From: Escherichia coli | GTDB lineage: Bacteria > Pseudomonadota > Gammaproteobacteria > Enterobacterales > Enterobacteriaceae | Strand: one strand, 5' to 3' | Length of the DNA: 64,000 bases | Assembly (NCBI RefSeq): GCF_048403405.1 | Contig: NZ_CP183131.1 | Part shown: piece by piece, positions 1,951-43,056 of the stretch | Layout: each line of letters starts with the position of its first letter | Position numbering within the stretch: position 1 is the stretch's first letter | Made by a program: the position numbers and the translations under genes | Notes under the pieces: model-generated | What the model was told of the DNA's origin: nothing | What the model saw: the letters and a program-made list of their open reading frames with translations, nothing else | Databases searched by the model: none

Positions 1951-1959
1951 GGGGCACAA

Positions 1960-1977
1960 ACTTTCACATGTGAAAGT
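1960..1977. promoter_or_regulatory. 18-bp perfect palindrome ACTTTCACATGTGAAAGT (parS-like)
   Basis: Read directly; one of five copies of core CTTTCACATGTGAAAG. Confidence 0.6.
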
Positions 1978-2001
1978 CGATGCCACTGGGAAAGCAGGGG
2001 G

Positions 2002-2355
2002 TTAACCCCCCGCTTTAACCCGCGCTAAGCGGTTTAGGATAGACTTCACGCCTTCCCTTACTCCAGATGGATCGTAACCTGCTTCATCGCAGCAGACCAC
2101 AAATGAGAATGGATGTACCTCATCGGACATCACCCAAGCCATCGTTTCCTGCTTGATTTCACTTCCAGCTCGACCATCAGCAAGGACTCTAAGGCTATGC
2201 CATAAAAGCCCATCACGTAACTGCCTTACCTCATCATCAGTCCATTCAGGCTTTGGCTCAAATGGAATGACTTCTGCGGTCTTCGGCTCTTCATCCAGGA
2301 AGAAAAGCGGCAGCTCAAGCTGGTTTTCCTTCTGGATCATCTTCACTGCATTCAT
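2002..2355 (-). CDS. hypothetical protein (117 aa)
   Basis: ORF track 2002..2421; start moved to MNAVKM with RBS AAAAGGAGTCACC. Confidence 0.5.
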   Translation of the reverse strand: MNAVKMIQKENQLELPLFFLDEEPKTAEVIPFEPKPEWTDDEVRQLRDGLLWHSLRVLADGRAGSEIKQETMAWVMSDEVHPFSFVVCCDEAGYDPSGVREGVKSILNRLARVKAGG

Positions 2356-3405: not shown

Positions 3406-3784
3406 AGCCACCTCCAGCACACTCCCCATCTTCGATTTCACTTCCGAGCTCGACCATTCCAATCAGGTCAAGCTGGGTCATGTCCGAATCCAGAGAGCAG
3501 TCAATTGCTGACTGAATGATGCCTTTGTGGGCCAAGCCTAAAACGGACTTAATAGTCGAAAGCAGAGACTCGGCTTCGCTCTCGATTTGCTCCAGAATGT
3601 CTTTCCATTCCCAGTGCTCAAACGGTTGCCAAACGACCAGATCCTCAGGCTCGTCTCCCCGTTCGACACACTCAGACAAATACTCATAAGCCTTGCACCA
3701 ATTCTCTTGTTGGCCCAGTTCACTGAGCACTAGAGCGGTAGCATGACCGTATGCGATTTGTTCAACTTTGGTATTGATAGACAT
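3395..3784 (-). CDS. hypothetical highly acidic protein (129 aa)
   Basis: ORF track; strong RBS GAGGAGAAACACT before ATG. Confidence 0.55.
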   Translation of the reverse strand: MSINTKVEQIAYGHATALVLSELGQQENWCKAYEYLSECVERGDEPEDLVVWQPFEHWEWKDILEQIESEAESLLSTIKSVLGLAHKGIIQSAIDCSLDSDMTQLDLIGMVELGSEIEDGECAGGGYAA

Positions 3785-16965: not shown

Positions 16966-17826
16966 ATGAAAAAGGCTTTAATCACCACCGTGGCTCTGGC
17001 TGTAGCAGCTCTATCTGGCTGTGCATCCACCAGCAGTTACGAACCCACAGCGTACAAAACCAATCACAGTCGCGCTTACAACATCGCGGAGGCCGGTGGC
17101 CTGGTAACAGGCATCCAAGACGCTTCTGTTCCGCGTGACAAGCTGGAGCGTCTGACCGACACCAAAACGTTTGGGGCAGCCTACGTGCTGTCTGGCTACA
17201 TGTCCCCTCAGCTCGGAATGACCGACTGGCAAGGTGGCTTGGTCAACCTTGCGAACTGGGCTATCGGCCCCAAACAGCATGGCGCTCGCAATAGCTTGAT
17301 CGCTTGGATGCCTGCTAACGAAGCAGTTTCACCGGCAGACGCTCAGGCCAAATTTCTTTCACATGTGAAAGTTTCCATTGAGTCAGCGCTGACTGATTTG
17401 GGTGCCAATTTCACGCTTCTGTATGACAAAGATGGTCGCCTAACCTATCAGTTCTACAAGAATGAATGGGGTTGCCCGACGTGGGTGAACGGACAAAGTA
17501 AGGTAGCTGACATGTGTTCCGTTAAGGTGAAAATCGTGGAGCCTCGCCTAGGGTCAGCTCCTAATTTTGTCTCTGGCGTTCAAGGTACAGCGTATGCCTT
17601 CACATCAGGCCATGAGACCGCATACAACTTTGTGAATGTCGGTAATGGGGCAGCAAGCCATGCTCCTCAGCAAGCGATCTACGCAGCTATTAGCAAACAG
17701 CTACCAGCTTGGGCCTACCTCTACCTTGCTCCAAAATCGGTTGAGCTGGATAATGGCGAAAAAGTTGCTTTCCCTTACCTTCTTGATCAGGGAAAAGCAG
17801 AGTTATTTGTTTACCCAGAAGCGTAA
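16966..17826 (+). CDS. lipoprotein (286 aa)
   Basis: Signal peptide with lipobox LSGC; RBS ACGGAGAA. Confidence 0.6.
   Translation: MKKALITTVALAVAALSGCASTSSYEPTAYKTNHSRAYNIAEAGGLVTGIQDASVPRDKLERLTDTKTFGAAYVLSGYMSPQLGMTDWQGGLVNLANWAIGPKQHGARNSLIAWMPANEAVSPADAQAKFLSHVKVSIESALTDLGANFTLLYDKDGRLTYQFYKNEWGCPTWVNGQSKVADMCSVKVKIVEPRLGSAPNFVSGVQGTAYAFTSGHETAYNFVNVGNGAASHAPQQAIYAAISKQLPAWAYLYLAPKSVELDNGEKVAFPYLLDQGKAELFVYPEA
17356..17371. promoter_or_regulatory. palindrome CTTTCACATGTGAAAG (parS-like), intragenic copy
   Basis: Read directly; inside the lipoprotein CDS. Confidence 0.5.
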
Positions 17827-36771: not shown

Positions 36772-37381
36772 GCTTTCTCCGGTTTTCTTCTTTGCGCTGG
36801 AGTTGCTCCAAAACAGTTTTGGTGCGTGGCTTTCCTACATAGGTGTCGATGTAGTCCAGCACGGGCGCGTAGTTTGAAATCTTGATGGCGAACTCGTAGG
36901 AGCGTTCGCTACGCTCTTCGTTAGAAGAAGCCCCTTTGACGTAGGAATATCCGTAGACAAACACCTTGTCGCTCTTGGGCTCGTACTCAACAAAACGCGG
37001 CTCAAACCGCATGGTTACGCGGTCGTTCTTGATCTGTTGAGCTTGAATTTCGATGGCATCAATCACGTCCTGATAGATGCTCGGGGAGAGAAGCGGGGTG
37101 ATCCGTTCTTTCACAAAGTCAACGGTTCCTGGCGTCACATTGCCAAGGAGCTGAGCAAAAGCGAAACCCCAAGCCTCTTTATAGGACTGAGAGGCGTTAT
37201 TTTTCGTCACCCAGGCTTCTTCCGTGAGCGTGAAAGGCTGGATAGTGACGATGGTTTCCTTGCTGAATACTTGGACCACCAGCAGGAAAACGATAGCAAT
37301 AAGACCACCCTGGAAGATTCGTCCCCACTTATTTTCTGTTTGGGTCCCTTCCCAGGTCTTGAGATACTTTTTCAGGTTCAA
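36755..37381 (-). CDS. traE: T4SS protein TraE (VirB8-like)
   Basis: Single N-terminal TM, 208 aa; gene order. Confidence 0.75.
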   Translation of the reverse strand: MNLKKYLKTWEGTQTENKWGRIFQGGLIAIVFLLVVQVFSKETIVTIQPFTLTEEAWVTKNNASQSYKEAWGFAFAQLLGNVTPGTVDFVKERITPLLSPSIYQDVIDAIEIQAQQIKNDRVTMRFEPRFVEYEPKSDKVFVYGYSYVKGASSNEERSERSYEFAIKISNYAPVLDYIDTYVGKPRTKTVLEQLQRKEENRRKHEEQR

Positions 37382-37659
37382 GGCAAATACCTCCGGACAA
37401 ACGGATTCTTGAGAGATTTGGCCTTGGTCATGATGAACCCGGCCCAGTAGATCATGTGGAGCAGGTATCCATCCGGATGGTTATCCCTGAATCGGCGATA
37501 AAGGTTGGTTACAAGTAACCCCCCCAGAAAGCAGATCAGGGCCTTACCGATGATGACCCCTATCGTTAGCCCCAAAAGCATCGGGGCCAACTCATCTGCG
37601 CTCCACAACAGCAGATGCGGGGGCTCATCGACCCGGCGCGGTATCTTTACAGGCTTCAT
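37378..37659 (-). CDS. traL: T4SS protein TraL (VirB3-like)
   Basis: 93 aa membrane protein; first gene of traLEKBVA. Confidence 0.75.
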   Translation of the reverse strand: MKPVKIPRRVDEPPHLLLWSADELAPMLLGLTIGVIIGKALICFLGGLLVTNLYRRFRDNHPDGYLLHMIYWAGFIMTKAKSLKNPFVRRYLP

Positions 37660-37727
37660 AGCAACCCTCTTCTTTTCCTAGTGGCCTGTATTCTCATTCA
37701 GGGTCACTGATTTTCTGCCACGGCTTC

Positions 37728-37744
37728 GCGCCCTTTTCGGGCAC
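37728..37744. promoter_or_regulatory. FlhDC-family activator box GCGCCCTTTTCGGGCAC upstream of traL
   Basis: ~70-85 bp upstream of traL start. Confidence 0.5.
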
Positions 37745-37756
37745 TTCCAGCGACAA

Positions 37757-37788
37757 ATAAAAAAAGGCGGCCTAAGCCGCCTTTTTTG
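37757..37788. terminator. bidirectional intrinsic terminator
   Basis: A9-GGCGGC-CTAA-GCCGCC-T6. Confidence 0.7.
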
Positions 37789-37803: not shown

Positions 37804-38181
37804 TTATTGATTTTGAGGAACCGCTTCCGAATGTTTTTCCGAAGCCGCAACGCTAACTTCATTGGCTGGTCGGGCCACCCCCAGAGTTTTCACTTCCTTG
37901 TTAGCATTGGCTTTAAACTTGAACATCAGACTGTACGCCGCCAGCAGGAAGAAGCTGAGAATGCCCCAGTAGGTCTGAACCGTGCCCAGAGCCTTGGCCG
38001 GGTCACTTGCAGCTCTGTTGGCCGTATCAGCAGCCAACTTAACCCACTGACTCCAGTCAAAACCTGCCGCAAAAGCAGACAGCCAAAACGCGACGGCCAC
38101 TGGAACGATGAAGATGCACATCAGCACCGCGTTCATCAAAAACCAGAAAAATTGTTTATTAAGGTTCACACTTCCTCCCAT
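37804..38181 (-). CDS. small membrane protein (125 aa)
   Basis: ORF track; hydrophobic; start overlaps upstream stop (TAATG). Confidence 0.45.
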   Translation of the reverse strand: MGGSVNLNKQFFWFLMNAVLMCIFIVPVAVAFWLSAFAAGFDWSQWVKLAADTANRAASDPAKALGTVQTYWGILSFFLLAAYSLMFKFKANANKEVKTLGVARPANEVSVAASEKHSEAVPQNQ

Positions 38182-38324
38182 TAACCTAGAAAATTGAATG
38201 CGTGTTCCAGGTTCATCCCTGCAACAACACCTATAACGAACATCACCTGCCAGACAAGGAACTGCCAGGAGATGAATGAACCAGATGAGCTTTCGCTTTC
38301 TCTGACGTGAGCTTGTGCGGACAT
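38181..38324 (-). CDS. small membrane peptide (47 aa)
   Basis: Manual; RBS GGAGGG; TAATG overlap with next gene. Confidence 0.35.
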   Translation of the reverse strand: MSAQAHVRESESSSGSFISWQFLVWQVMFVIGVVAGMNLEHAFNFLG

Positions 38325-38399
38325 AGACCCTCCAAATAACTTGTCGTCATCACGGAGTAATCGTCTCTTAATTGATCAATCTAGGAACAGTGCTGTTAC

Positions 38400-38415
38400 G
38401 GCCCATTTTGGGCAC
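38400..38415. promoter_or_regulatory. FlhDC-family activator box GGCCCATTTTGGGCAC
   Basis: In the 38325..38504 intergenic region. Confidence 0.5.
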
Positions 38416-38460
38416 TTTATGGAGGTTTATTCGAGGAGATGATAAGAGCGGGAGGCGAAA

Positions 38461-38480
38461 AACTTTCACATGTGAAAGTT
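38461..38480. promoter_or_regulatory. 20-bp perfect palindrome AACTTTCACATGTGAAAGTT (parS-like)
   Basis: Read directly. Confidence 0.6.
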
Positions 38481-38504
38481 CAAAGCGGCCAATGGCCGCT
38501 TGTT

Positions 38505-39167
38505 TCACACTGTTCTATTGTAACGGAGTTCTCGATAAGCATCCCATGCTTGCTCTGATGAGACACCTCGACAACCAACATCTGTGGCGCACTCAAGGTC
38601 CATCTTGTACTGCTTAACCTTCTGGTCTGCTGTATCGCCCCAGCTCATGGCTGATGGGTACTTGGAAACACTAAACACATTTTCAAGTTCAGCCTGATAG
38701 TCGTCGTTTTGTAACAGAGGTTCGGTTTCACCATCATCCCAGCGAATGTAAGCCTTACCCTGGAGAGCCTTCAAATGCAAAGGCACCAGTAAGGTGGAAA
38801 TCACTTCGTCAGCCCTGATGTCTTTGTAAGCACACCAGTGAGGTTTAACGGTGATCACACCATTTACCAAAACGATGTCACACGCCAGTGTCGCTTCAAC
38901 ATTATCGTTAACATCCTGCCGAGCGTAGATCTCCACGAAACCAACCTGCTCTGGAACAACCTTGTCGATGAAGCTCCAAAAGCTGGGGTACGACGTTCCA
39001 TCGCTGAGCGTCAACTGACCGTCATGCTCTTTCAGCATACGGTTCAGTTGTGCAGTGAAGAACTCTGCCGACACTTTTCTTGCCAATGGTTCCATATCAC
39101 TCAGTCGTAGAGTGGCTCCTGCACCCCCCTCATACACCTCTCCAAAAAAGAAATCTCTCTTACGCAT
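38505..39167 (-). CDS. hypothetical protein (220 aa)
   Basis: ORF track; RBS GGAGG inside upstream gene, TAATG overlap. Confidence 0.5.
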   Translation of the reverse strand: MRKRDFFFGEVYEGGAGATLRLSDMEPLARKVSAEFFTAQLNRMLKEHDGQLTLSDGTSYPSFWSFIDKVVPEQVGFVEIYARQDVNDNVEATLACDIVLVNGVITVKPHWCAYKDIRADEVISTLLVPLHLKALQGKAYIRWDDGETEPLLQNDDYQAELENVFSVSKYPSAMSWGDTADQKVKQYKMDLECATDVGCRGVSSEQAWDAYRELRYNRTV

Positions 39168-41190: not shown

Positions 41191-43056
41191 TTACTGGGTC
41201 AATATGGGCAGACGGCCTTTTACGATTGTTCCGCCTGAAATTTTGGCTATGTATTCCAGGTTCGGAAGCATTCCCAATAACTGGGCTGGGAACAGATCAG
41301 CTTCCTCCTCCATCAAACGCTCGCCTTGGTTGCCTCCGTGCATAATGGGCTCCTTGCCATCCGAGTTCTGGCCTTGAGTCCGCATGACGTACTTGAGCCG
41401 GGTCTTCGGCAGGTTATCCGCGATATACTCCTGGGTTTCACCATCGACGATACGCAGAGCAAACGTGTTGTTGATGTTCCCCAACACCTGGAGCGCTTTG
41501 TCTTTGCTACCCAGTCGAGCTGCGAAGTCAGCAAAAGTCTGAGTTGCAACGAAAAGACGAAGTTTCGCACCGCGACCTTTGTTCAGGAGCTGGATGAACG
41601 GGTCGTTGATCACCTCGGCAGCCTCATCAACAAAGATATTTACGGGTCTGTTGTTGACGCCGTAGTTGTATCTGTCACCGGCAACCGCTGTCAGGTCTGA
41701 CAGGAAGATGGACCCCATAGCACTACCAACCATGTTGTCGGTCAGGGAGTCGAGCCCCAGATAAGCAACTTGAGCGTTGTTGATGATTTTTGCGGAATCG
41801 GTGATCTGGCGTTCGTCGCTCAGATCAGATGAGTCTGGAGACAGCAGAGGGCCTAGCTCCCCGGACGTCAGCATATTCATGATCGGCAGGAGGTTCGCCA
41901 CCATCTTGGAGAAGTGGGTTTGGTCGTGCTGGAACATCGACAGCAAGCCTTCCAGGTCAGAGTTCGGGTGCTCAGGTTGGATGATGTCGTAGTAGAACTT
42001 CATCAACGCGAAAGCGATCTTCTCACGCGAACCGTTTTTGGCTTTTTCCAAGTAAGCCGCTGCTTCTGCCTCCCAGTCGGGCATAACTCGCTCTGAGTAA
42101 GCCTGAACGGCCTTGATGACCAAGCCAGCAGCGCCACCTTCAAGGAATCGGCGGAGCTTTGTCAGGTTGGGACGATCATGAGTGATGACCAAGCCCTGAG
42201 CGATGTTGTTCAGTGCCTGCCATCCAAATGATTTGAACGGGTCGGCCCCTGCTTCGGACGGGATCAACGCTGCCAAACGACTTGCGATTTCAGTCACGCG
42301 GGTGAAGTTACGCAGAGGGTCGATACGCACCGACTCTTCCGGGAATGCTGGATGAAATGAGACGAATCTTTCCGGCTGCCCCATAGCTTCACAGGCACGT
42401 CGGGCATTGTCCCGCATCTCCTTATCCCCTTTCGGGTCTATGATGATCACGGCTTCCCCACGCAGAATGGCCTGTGAAATCAGGATGTCGAACATACGGG
42501 TCTTGCCCGAGCCGGTGGTCCCAACGATCAGCGAATGCCCCTCAGTGTGCTTGAGTGGCTGCATCAGCTTCTCTTCTTTGGGCTCTACCCCGTGAATCCA
42601 GGGCTGGCCGATTGGCAGCTCCTTTTTCTTACCCTGTATCTTCCGGACAACCTTTTTGACCGTGGACTCTCTCCCTACGATGGAAGTCCAGTCGCGTTTC
42701 AGGATCTCAAACACGCGCTGGGCATGGCGGTTTTCCCACAGGAACCCACTACCAAGCCACATATCGTCCGGCGTGTCCTTGATGTACTTTTGGAGCTCCG
42801 CAATGGAAATAAACTCCAGATCACGCCCCTTCAAATGCTTTTGGAGCAGGTGAAGTTTGATAGCCTTGGGCAAACGAGCCATCGCCATCACGCCACAGAT
42901 CCCCGTCATCCAATAGAATGGCTCCGGCGGCATCGTGCTGACTTGCTCTACGGCCAAAGCCGCGCCGGAGGCGGCAAGCCAGCCTGCTACAGCATTTTTT
43001 TCATAGTTGGGCCGCCACGGCATCTCGTAGGCGAGCGGGTCATAACTCATTGTCAT
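41191..43056 (-). CDS. traD: type IV coupling protein TraD
   Basis: 621 aa; Walker A GTTGSGKT; N-terminal TM; follows traI. Confidence 0.9.
   Translation of the reverse strand: MTMSYDPLAYEMPWRPNYEKNAVAGWLAASGAALAVEQVSTMPPEPFYWMTGICGVMAMARLPKAIKLHLLQKHLKGRDLEFISIAELQKYIKDTPDDMWLGSGFLWENRHAQRVFEILKRDWTSIVGRESTVKKVVRKIQGKKKELPIGQPWIHGVEPKEEKLMQPLKHTEGHSLIVGTTGSGKTRMFDILISQAILRGEAVIIIDPKGDKEMRDNARRACEAMGQPERFVSFHPAFPEESVRIDPLRNFTRVTEIASRLAALIPSEAGADPFKSFGWQALNNIAQGLVITHDRPNLTKLRRFLEGGAAGLVIKAVQAYSERVMPDWEAEAAAYLEKAKNGSREKIAFALMKFYYDIIQPEHPNSDLEGLLSMFQHDQTHFSKMVANLLPIMNMLTSGELGPLLSPDSSDLSDERQITDSAKIINNAQVAYLGLDSLTDNMVGSAMGSIFLSDLTAVAGDRYNYGVNNRPVNIFVDEAAEVINDPFIQLLNKGRGAKLRLFVATQTFADFAARLGSKDKALQVLGNINNTFALRIVDGETQEYIADNLPKTRLKYVMRTQGQNSDGKEPIMHGGNQGERLMEEEADLFPAQLLGMLPNLEYIAKISGGTIVKGRLPILTQ

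What the first reader, a model, noticed from the sequence alone, without database searches (positions are those of the whole stretch)
37804..38504. Tiny membrane protein pair under combined activator-box and parS-like palindrome control
A 47-aa and a 125-aa membrane protein with TAATG stop-start overlap are transcribed from the 38325..38504 region, which carries both a GCCCATTTTGGGCA box and the 20-bp perfect palindrome, and ends at a bidirectional terminator just upstream of the traL promoter. Placement directly upstream of the pilus operon suggests an exclusion, pilus-accessory or holin-like function co-regulated with transfer.
Basis: partly seen in the sequence, partly recalled or inferred. 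Interest (0 to 1): 0.45.

Follow-up and report, generated by a model that had tools for sequence, protein, structure and literature searches.

The report
IncC plasmid genes vcrx068-vcrx069
This is the already described vcrx068-vcrx069 operon of IncC resistance plasmids: two tiny membrane proteins of unknown function that are switched on with the conjugation genes by the master activator AcaCD and sit next to one of the plasmid's partition (parS) sites.

Summary
The window is IncC plasmid backbone with its genes on the minus strand. The two ORFs are vcrx068 (47 aa) and vcrx069. The box is an AcaCD-binding motif supported by published ChIP-exo and 5'-RACE data. The palindrome is the IncC centromere site parS, which binds the KorB-like ParB. 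A 2024 paper already lists the vcrx068 promoter among four AcaCD promoters with an adjacent parS.

One correction: the conserved start of vcrx069 is the GTG at 38169 (121 aa, with a GGAGG ribosome-binding site). The TAATG overlap is missing in three of the relatives aligned.

Both ORFs are under purifying selection (dN/dS 0.1-0.4). They sit directly upstream of traL in every IncA/IncC-like relative examined. The terminator shows compensatory changes.

The proteins are orphans. Pfam, NCBIfam, PHROGs, PADLOC, PDB and an exhaustive HMM search of 1.84 billion proteins found no family beyond this plasmid lineage. A vcrx068 homologue exists in pAQU plasmids without vcrx069. The one SXT/R391 element examined has neither.

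Published work disfavours an exclusion role: eexC plus sfx account for all IncC exclusion.

The most likely role is a lineage-specific inner-membrane accessory of the mating apparatus. That is an inference. Control by ParB through parS is untested.

The parts
38483..38501 (-). GC hairpin AAGCGGCCATTGGCCGCTT, starting 4 nt after the vcrx066 stop codon. It is a probable terminator or insulator for the AcaCD-independent vcrx066 transcript.
   Evidence: It folds together with parS at -23.6 kcal/mol, z = -2.9. L004 carries a compensatory change, GCAGCC/GGCTGC. Published RNA-seq without AcaCD gives vcrx066 1134, the vcrx067 region 517 and vcrx068 0.
38460..38481 (.). IncC parS: 14-bp core TTTCACATGTGAAA with AAAC/GTTT-type flanks. 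It is one of about 14 dispersed binding sites for the KorB-like ParB.
   Evidence: Searches give the sequence. (PMC10954446) gives the consensus, EMSA on three other sites, and names the vcrx068 promoter. The core is invariant in all relatives.
38391..38419 (-). 29-bp AcaCD-binding motif TAAAGTGCCCAAAATGGGCCGTAACAGCA (pVCR94 42725-42753)
   Evidence: Coordinates were mapped from Table S3 of PMC4207636 using window = 81144 - pVCR94. The same mapping lands correctly on the traL motif and start codon. The core is conserved in relatives.
38353..38355 (-). Transcription start site of the vcrx068-069 mRNA (published 5'-RACE, pVCR94 42789-42791), giving a 28-nt 5'UTR that carries the GGAGG ribosome-binding site
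38181..38324 (-). vcrx068: a 47-aa single-pass membrane micro-protein with a Ser/Glu-rich N-terminus, one TM segment around residues 17-37 and a short C-terminus
   Evidence: ORF. RefSeq WP_001275801. dN/dS 0.20-0.44, with length and ribosome-binding site conserved. Hydropathy. Homologues occur in IncA/C-like and pAQU plasmids.
37804..38169 (-). vcrx069: a 121-aa two-pass inner-membrane protein starting at GTG 38169. TM1 spans about residues 7-37 and ends in the motif GFDW..W. An amphipathic loop of about 30 aa follows, then TM2 at about residues 67-85, a Lys-rich stretch and a variable tail ending in QNQ. The alternative ATG at 38181 would give 125 aa.
   Evidence: dN/dS 0.10-0.26. Hydropathy. 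AF2 model is helical but low confidence, pLDDT 61.
37760..37787 (-). Intrinsic terminator AAAAAAGGCGGCTTAGGCCGCCTTTTTT that ends the vcrx068-069 transcript
   Evidence: Pattern scan. Fold -20.4 kcal/mol, z = -3.5. Compensatory change GGCAGC/GCTGCC in L007, L006 and L010.
37720..37748 (-). AcaCD motif of the separate traL promoter. Its TSS is at 37682-37684 and traL occupies 37659..37378.
   Evidence: TraL TIGR02762, E = 2.5e-13

Best explanation
Shown, from the sequence and published experiments:
- The region is the vcrx068-vcrx069 transcription unit of the IncC plasmid backbone.
- AcaCD, the FlhDC-like master activator of transfer, binds the 29-bp motif at 38419..38391. It starts transcription at 38355-38353 in a class-II-activator arrangement.
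- The roughly 0.6-kb mRNA encodes a 47-aa single-pass membrane protein and a 121-aa two-pass membrane protein. It stops at the intrinsic terminator at 37787..37760, just before the independent AcaCD promoter of traL.
- The palindrome 40 bp upstream of the AcaCD motif is one of the plasmid's dispersed parS centromere sites for the KorB-like ParB.

Inferred:
- The parS sits in the untranscribed gap between the vcrx066 terminator hairpin and the promoter. Its main job is partition. Any effect on this promoter would be a secondary modulation by ParB.
- The two proteins act in the donor inner membrane while the type IV secretion system and pilus are being built, as lineage-specific, non-core accessory factors of mating-pair formation or envelope homeostasis.
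- vcrx068 is the older partner. vcrx069 is an addition specific to IncA/IncC.
For: Identity and regulation:
- The region is 100% identical to about 880 IncC plasmids.
- Table S3 and Dataset S1 of PMC4207636 give the ChIP-exo peak, motif, TSS and AcaCD-dependent expression.
- A vcrx068 promoter-lacZ fusion was built in single copy in the chromosome. The paper reports virtually all 23 fusions as AcaCD/SgaCD-activated, and names only vcrx035, vcrx036 and vcrx087 as constitutive.
- parS identity and its adjacency to four AcaCD promoters, including vcrx068, are published.

Coding status:
- dN/dS is 0.10-0.44, indels are in frame, and the ribosome-binding sites are conserved.

Link to the transfer apparatus:
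- The order 068-069-traL is kept in all IncA/C-like relatives checked, even where vcrx064-066 are lost or replaced.
- parS and the AcaCD box are kept in the most divergent relative, L014.
- TM residues are highly conserved, with 36 invariant columns in vcrx069.

Accessory rather than core:
- pAQU plasmids keep a vcrx068 homologue but lack vcrx069.
- The SXT/R391 element R997 has neither.
- More distant MOBH/MPF_F plasmids carry other genes in the traJ-traL slot.

Terminators:
- Both hairpins show compensatory changes and fold better than shuffled sequence.
Against: - No functional data exist for either protein.
- There is no homology to any known T4SS, pilus, holin, exclusion or defence family.
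- Structure prediction is low confidence, and the fused pair gave no interface.
- The T4SS of the SXT/R391 element examined, R997, has no such pair, so the proteins may have nothing to do with the secretion machine itself.
- parS lies closer to AcaCD boxes than random placement predicts: 2 of 5 sites in the window, P about 0.009. This argues against a purely incidental position.
- In SGI1, a parS mutation next to an AcaCD promoter changed copy number. That hints ParB may be a real co-regulator.
Confidence: 0.6

Rival explanations
1. ParB bound at parS is a genuine co-regulator of the vcrx068 promoter and of the three other AcaCD promoters with an adjacent parS. It would act like KorB of RK2, by spreading or sliding from the site to damp or insulate the promoter. 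That would couple partition status to expression of the transfer regulon.
For: - IncC ParB carries a KorB domain and gives high-order shifts in EMSA.
- parS-AcaCD adjacency recurs at vcrx012, vcrx036, vcrx068 and traF, and at two SGI1 promoters. Mutating the SGI1 DR1 parS lowered SGI1 copy number.
- The adjacency is conserved in all relatives and is tighter in pAQU2.
- It is non-random within the window, P about 0.009.
Against: - The promoter is already silent without AcaCD (0 reads) and is induced with ParB present.
- The reporter fusions were assayed in a strain without the plasmid, so without ParB.
- Spacing between the parS core and the AcaCD box varies from about 25 to 64 bp among relatives. 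That argues against a fixed ParB-AcaCD contact.
- No experiment has tested this site.
Confidence: 0.3
2. The pair is an exclusion or immunity factor that blocks redundant transfer into cells already carrying the plasmid.
For: These are small inner-membrane proteins next to the mating-pair genes. The cytoplasmic tail of vcrx069 is variable and could act as a specificity determinant. This is reasoning by analogy only.
Against: - eexC plus sfx account for all IncC exclusion. A TraDIS screen for exclusion factors did not recover vcrx068 or vcrx069.
- The genes are off without AcaCD, whereas that paper describes sfx as constitutively expressed.
Confidence: 0.05
3. The pair is a holin-like or toxin-like membrane-permeabilising module. 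It would either help a lytic transglycosylase reach the wall or kill or arrest donors.
For: vcrx069 has two TM segments and a Lys-rich segment after TM2. vcrx068 has the size and shape of small membrane toxins.
Against: - No PHROGs holin hit and no PADLOC hit.
- No lysin or antitoxin neighbour.
- The pair is expressed in wild-type pVCR94 cultures at 242 and 844 units.
- No antisense RNA family was found.
Confidence: 0.07
4. The ORFs are evolutionary passengers with no function of their own. On this view what is conserved is the DNA: the promoter, parS and terminator that insulate the traL operon.
For: - Constraint is weaker than on traL (dN/dS 0.1-0.4 against 0-0.07).
- vcrx069 is absent from pAQU, and both genes are absent from R997.
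- One metagenomic variant has a stop codon in vcrx068.
- A Hamiltonella plasmid has a deletion that removes vcrx069.
Against: - dN/dS is well below 1 in both genes, all indels are in frame, and the ribosome-binding sites and start positions are conserved.
- vcrx069 has 36 invariant residues across relatives down to 59% identity.
- vcrx068 keeps its length and TM pattern at 32% identity in pAQU.
Confidence: 0.08

Closest known systems
vcrx068-vcrx069 of pVCR94 (AcaCD regulon; Carraro et al. 2014, PMC4207636; Durand et al. 2021, PMC8373056)
   Same: These are the same genes. The motif, TSS, operon end and AcaCD dependence all map one-to-one onto the window.
   Different: Nothing differs. The published work leaves the function unknown. 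It also annotates a probably spurious vcrx067 ORF across the parS/AcaCD-box region.
IncC parS / ParB (parAB053) system (PMC10954446)
   Same: The site has the identical 14-bp core and flanks. That paper names the vcrx068 promoter among the AcaCD promoters with an adjacent parS.
   Different: ParB binding was shown by EMSA for three other sites, not this one. A regulatory role is only hypothesised.
KorB-OB operators of IncP plasmid RK2/RP4
   Same: A ParB-family protein with a KorB domain has a dozen or so palindromic sites scattered over the plasmid, some beside promoters of transfer and maintenance genes. This comparison rests on established knowledge and on the discussion seen.
   Different: The operator sequence is different. 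Repression by IncC ParB has been shown only for its own parA promoter. No KorA-like partner is known here.
Small non-essential inner-membrane Trb/Tra proteins of the F transfer operon (for example TrbI, TrbJ, TrbE, TraP)
   Same: They are small, lineage-specific membrane proteins embedded among MPF_F genes and co-expressed with them. This comparison rests on my own knowledge.
   Different: There is no sequence similarity. No phenotype is known for vcrx068 or vcrx069.
Class II holins (two TM segments, N-in/C-in)
   Same: The predicted two-TM topology with a basic segment after TM2 is the same.
   Different: vcrx069 is larger, has no holin family hit and no endolysin neighbour, and sits in a conjugative rather than lytic context.

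Membership tests
AcaCD-activated promoter (IncA/C transfer regulon) | 29-bp AcaCD motif with the core TGCCCAAAATGGGC | tested here: met
   Window 38419..38391 reads TAAAGTGCCCAAAATGGGCCGTAACAGCA. It aligns with the traL and vcrx036 motifs.
AcaCD-activated promoter (IncA/C transfer regulon) | AcaCD occupancy, a TSS about 64 nt from the motif start, and AcaCD-dependent transcript levels | not testable with these tools
   Published for the identical sequence: ChIP-exo peak 42805, TSS 42789-91, expression 0 to 550 and 1 to 2699. Single-copy lacZ fusions of the AcaCD-activatable promoters, including vcrx068, were reported as activated apart from three named exceptions.
IncC parS centromere site | Invariant 14-bp core TTTCACATGTGAAA flanked by AAAC/GTTT, with the G and T of the right flank present | tested here: met
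   The minus strand at 38481..38460 reads GAACTTTCACATGTGAAAGTTT.
IncC parS centromere site | Binding by IncC ParB | not testable with these tools
   EMSA was done on the R55_174, PparA and SGI1 DR2 sites, not on this copy.
Rho-independent terminator | GC-rich stem-loop followed by a U run, with the stem maintained by compensatory change | tested here: met
   At 37787..37760: 12 pairs followed by a T run, z = -3.5, and GGCGGC/GCCGCC changed to GGCAGC/GCTGCC in three relatives.
Core MPF_F type IV secretion or pilus proteins (TraL/E/K/B/V/A/C/W/U/N/F/H/G, pilin TraA/TrbC) | Match to the family profile | tested here: not met
   No Pfam or NCBIfam hit for either protein. vcrx069 against the IncC TraA pilin gives E = 15. 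Both genes are absent from R997, an SXT/R391 element whose T4SS genes are homologous.
Holin | Holin family profile match and an adjacent endolysin or lysis cassette | tested here: not met
   PHROGs gave no holin family; the best hit had E = 0.72 and unknown function. The neighbours are vcrx066 and traL.
Holin | Small protein with at least one TM segment and a charged C-terminus | tested here: met
   Hydropathy shows two TM segments followed by KFKANANKEVK. This feature is not specific.
Entry or surface exclusion factor (EexC/TraS, Sfx/TraT type) | Reduces entry of the same plasmid when expressed in the recipient | not testable with these tools
Anti-phage defence systems (PADLOC) | Profile match | tested here: not met
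   No family matched at E <= 1.

The most novel reading that the evidence does not exclude
The 47-aa vcrx068 micro-protein, conserved from IncA/IncC to pAQU plasmids and always wedged between a parS-flanked AcaCD promoter and traL, is a previously unrecognised small subunit or assembly factor of this MOBH/MPF_F mating apparatus, with vcrx069 as its IncA/C-specific partner. In addition, ParB bound at the upstream parS acts KorB-like to tune this and three other AcaCD promoters, which would link plasmid partition to transfer.
Probability: 0.2. Interest if true: 0.55.

Novelty: already known. Interest (0 to 1): 0.22.

Why it matters
IncC plasmids are major carriers of multidrug resistance, and about a third of their AcaCD regulon still has no known function. 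If vcrx068 or vcrx069 turned out to matter for mating-pair formation, or if ParB-parS tuned AcaCD promoters, that would add a component or a control layer to a clinically important conjugation system. As it stands, the locus and its cis-elements are already described. This analysis adds only comparative detail: the true start codon, the distribution of the pair, and the conservation of the hairpins.

Tried and rejected
Family and homology searches that found nothing:
- NCBIfam, PHROGs, PADLOC and Pfam gave no significant family for either protein or for vcrx064-066.
- A PDB sequence profile search gave only compositional hits to GLIC TM helices at E > 2.
- An exhaustive HMM search of 1.84 billion representatives with the vcrx069 profile returned 8 hits. 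Seven belong to the same family. The eighth is an unexplained 2215-aa protein at E = 1.4e-5.
- tblastn against plasmids found vcrx069 only in IncA/IncC-like plasmids.
- Rfam gave nothing above gathering score.

Structure prediction:
- The AF2 model of vcrx069 has pLDDT 61 and pTM 0.27.
- A vcrx068-linker-vcrx069 fusion with a 9-row paired alignment gave pLDDT 47, so nothing can be said about an interface.
- Foldseek against PDB returned 0 hits.

Hypotheses rejected:
- A second pilin, suggested because traA sits upstream of traL in F, is rejected at the sequence level.
- An exclusion role is rejected on published evidence.

Not obtained:
- The TraDIS study of IncC conjugation genes (Hancock et al. 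2020, Nat Microbiol) is not in the held library. Whether insertions in these genes affect transfer could not be checked.

Full report
**What is in the sequence**

The window is IncC (IncA/C2) plasmid backbone. The 901-bp region is at least 99% identical in 884 PLSDB plasmids, nearly all typed as IncC and conjugative. The genes here run on the minus strand in the order traJ, three hypothetical genes, the two small ORFs, then traL-traE-traK-traB-traV-traA.

- The 47-aa ORF lies at 38324..38181. The 125-aa ORF lies at 38181..37804. They share one base inside TAATG.
- GCCCATTTTGGGCA is at 38401-38414.
- The 20-bp perfect palindrome is at 38461-38480. Four near-identical copies occur elsewhere in the window, against none expected by chance.
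- A GC hairpin flanked by A and T runs lies at 37760-37787.

**What the elements are**

The ORFs are vcrx068 and vcrx069 of the model IncC plasmid pVCR94.

Table S3 of Carraro et al. 2014 lists an AcaCD ChIP-exo peak, a 29-bp AcaCD motif (42725-42753) and a 5'-RACE start site (42789-42791) upstream of vcrx068. With the mapping window = 81144 - pVCR94, these fall at 38419..38391 and 38355..38353. The same mapping puts the traL motif, TSS and start codon exactly where they are in the window.

Dataset S1 gives the following expression values, in the order wild type, ΔacaCD, complemented:

| Gene | Wild type | ΔacaCD | Complemented |
|---|---|---|---|
| vcrx068 | 242 | 0 | 550 |
| vcrx069 | 844 | 1 | 2699 |

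Durand et al. 2021 fused the vcrx068 promoter to lacZ in single copy in the chromosome. [quoted passage not shown]

The palindrome is the IncC parS. A 2024 NAR paper defines the fully conserved core TTTCACATGTGAAA with AAAC/GTTT flanks. It shows by EMSA that the KorB-domain ParB binds three such sites. It also states that four AcaCD-regulated promoters (vcrx012, vcrx036, vcrx068 and traF) have a parS just upstream, and suggests possible crosstalk that is "under investigation".

The other window copies fit that paper's list:
- one lies 57 bp upstream of parA;
- one lies inside the 286-aa gene after traN, which is sfx;
- one is intergenic;
- one lies 44 bp upstream of the vcrx036 AcaCD motif.

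**Correction to the ORF call**

I aligned the region with eight relatives that are 57-92% identical. They comprise IncA, Xenorhabdus, Shewanella, Oceanospirillaceae and Plesiomonas-type elements.

The conserved start of the second ORF is GTG or ATG at window 38169, preceded by GGAGG. This gives 121 aa, as in RefSeq and pVCR94. The ATG of the TAATG overlap is absent in three of these lineages (L013, L012 and L004). The stop-start overlap is therefore probably an accident of this particular sequence.

**Are the ORFs real genes?**

- Pairwise dN/dS against five relatives is 0.20-0.44 for vcrx068 and 0.10-0.26 for vcrx069. For traL it is 0-0.07. The counts for vcrx068 are small.
- All indels are in frame: 6 nt in vcrx068, and 18 and 45 nt in the vcrx069 tail.
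- Both ribosome-binding sites are conserved.
- vcrx069 has 36 invariant positions across relatives down to 59% identity. Most are in the two hydrophobic segments and in a GFDW..W motif.
- Hydropathy indicates one TM segment in vcrx068. In vcrx069 it indicates two, separated by an amphipathic loop of about 30 residues and followed by a Lys-rich stretch and a variable tail ending in QNQ.

**Distribution**

The order 068-069-traL is kept in every IncA/IncC-like relative examined. This holds even where vcrx064-066 are missing, truncated or replaced by unrelated genes. The parS and the AcaCD box are kept as well.

- pAQU-group plasmids keep a 47-50-aa homologue of vcrx068 (32% identity, same length and TM pattern). 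It sits behind the same hairpin, parS and AcaCD-like motif, and there is no vcrx069.
- The SXT/R391 element R997 has two reverse-strand cargo genes in this slot and no comparable ORF.
- More distant MOBH/MPF_F plasmids carry a thioredoxin-domain gene there.
- The exhaustive HMM search with the vcrx069 profile found only this family.

The pair is therefore a lineage-restricted occupant of a variable slot, not a core secretion component. vcrx068 is the older member.

**Function**

No family, structure or defence-system match was found. The AF2 models are of low confidence.

- An exclusion role is disfavoured. Rivard et al. 2024 show that eexC plus sfx account for all IncC exclusion, and their TraDIS candidates do not include these genes.
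- A holin role lacks any specific support.
- A pilin paralogue is rejected at the sequence level.

The best-supported reading is inferred from four observations: strict AcaCD co-expression, fixed position at the head of the traL operon, strong conservation of TM residues, and dispensability in sister lineages. On that basis the pair is a lineage-specific inner-membrane accessory of mating-pair formation, or of envelope homeostasis while the apparatus assembles. I put this at roughly one in three. The transcription-unit description itself is secure.

**The parS question**

The parS lies 40 bp upstream of the AcaCD motif, centred near -116 from the TSS.

Immediately upstream of it is a conserved GC hairpin that begins 4 nt after the vcrx066 stop codon. 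One lineage carries a compensatory change in it, and in L004, L008 and L009 the hairpin-plus-parS module is duplicated.

Published RNA-seq shows vcrx066 expressed without AcaCD (1134). The signal falls to 517 over the hairpin/parS/box interval and to 0 in vcrx068. This fits termination at or just after the hairpin and parS. That is my inference from summary numbers.

Two readings remain open.
- parS simply occupies an untranscribed gap, which suits a centromere.
- ParB acts KorB-like on the promoter.

For the second reading: the adjacency recurs and is non-random, and a parS mutation in SGI1 had an effect. Against it: parS-to-box spacing varies from about 25 to 64 bp, the promoter is already silent without AcaCD, and the published reporter fusions sat in strains without the plasmid and so without ParB.

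**Verdict**

The cis-architecture and the genes are already in the literature, and the function of the proteins remains unknown. Interest is low to moderate.

Noticed in passing
window 38505-39167 (-), vcrx066: Published RNA-seq shows vcrx066 expressed at similar levels with and without AcaCD (1134 against 1344 in wild type). Its upstream neighbours vcrx064 and vcrx065 drop to 3 and 37. An AcaCD-independent promoter must therefore lie within or just before vcrx066.
   Followed up: no
window 38368-38508 (-), 46-aa ORF (vcrx067 in pVCR94): This annotated ORF spans the terminator hairpin, the parS and the AcaCD box. RefSeq does not call it. It is probably spurious.
   Followed up: partly
window 38483-38520 (-): A conserved TGTGAAA half-site precedes the GC hairpin and can pair with the left half of parS. 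This gives a nested two-hairpin RNA fold of -23.6 kcal/mol, z = -2.9. The half-site is conserved even in L010, where no vcrx066 coding sequence is present.
   Followed up: partly
L004 about 3570-3720; L008 and L009 3500-3700: The hairpin-plus-parS module upstream of vcrx068 is tandemly duplicated in this lineage, giving two parS cores about 105 bp apart.
   Followed up: no
L018 (pAQU2) 2550-2640: In pAQU2 the parS abuts the AcaCD-like motif with a gap of about 8-10 bp, compared with 40 bp in IncC. The motif core is degenerate (TTCCCAAATGGAC). The 47-aa gene is followed directly by a terminator and the traL promoter, with no vcrx069.
   Followed up: partly
L017 250-560 (metagenome contig): This vcrx068 homologue carries an in-frame TAG (from TGG), and the AcaCD box reads GACC instead of GCCC, while vcrx069 is intact. 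This could be decay of the promoter and first gene, or a sequencing error.
   Followed up: no
P0037/P0038 (Candidatus Williamhamiltonella defendens plasmid): The N-terminal 37 residues of vcrx068 are fused to sequence that matches the out-of-frame ORF across the terminator and traL box. This implies a deletion that removed the rest of vcrx068 and all of vcrx069 in this endosymbiont plasmid.
   Followed up: no
window 37804-38169 compared with 37378-37659: Synonymous divergence of vcrx069 (dS 0.27-0.73) is about 2-3 times that of the adjacent traL (0.08-0.41) against the same relatives. This suggests a recombination boundary or a different evolutionary history across the terminator.
   Followed up: no
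window 17354-17373: This parS copy lies inside the coding sequence of the 286-aa gene downstream of traN, which by position and size is the surface-exclusion gene sfx.
   Followed up: partly
window 1959-2010: This intergenic parS copy is followed, about 20 nt further on, by a GC hairpin (AGCAGGGGGTTAACCCCCCGCT). It is a second case of a parS paired with a terminator-like hairpin.
   Followed up: no
P0041 (2215 aa, residues about 1073-1108 and four other stretches): This is the only non-family hit of the vcrx069 profile (E = 1.4e-5). It matches the end of TM1 and the loop region (profile positions 30-65) five times in a very long protein. I did not inspect it, and it may be compositional.
   Followed up: no
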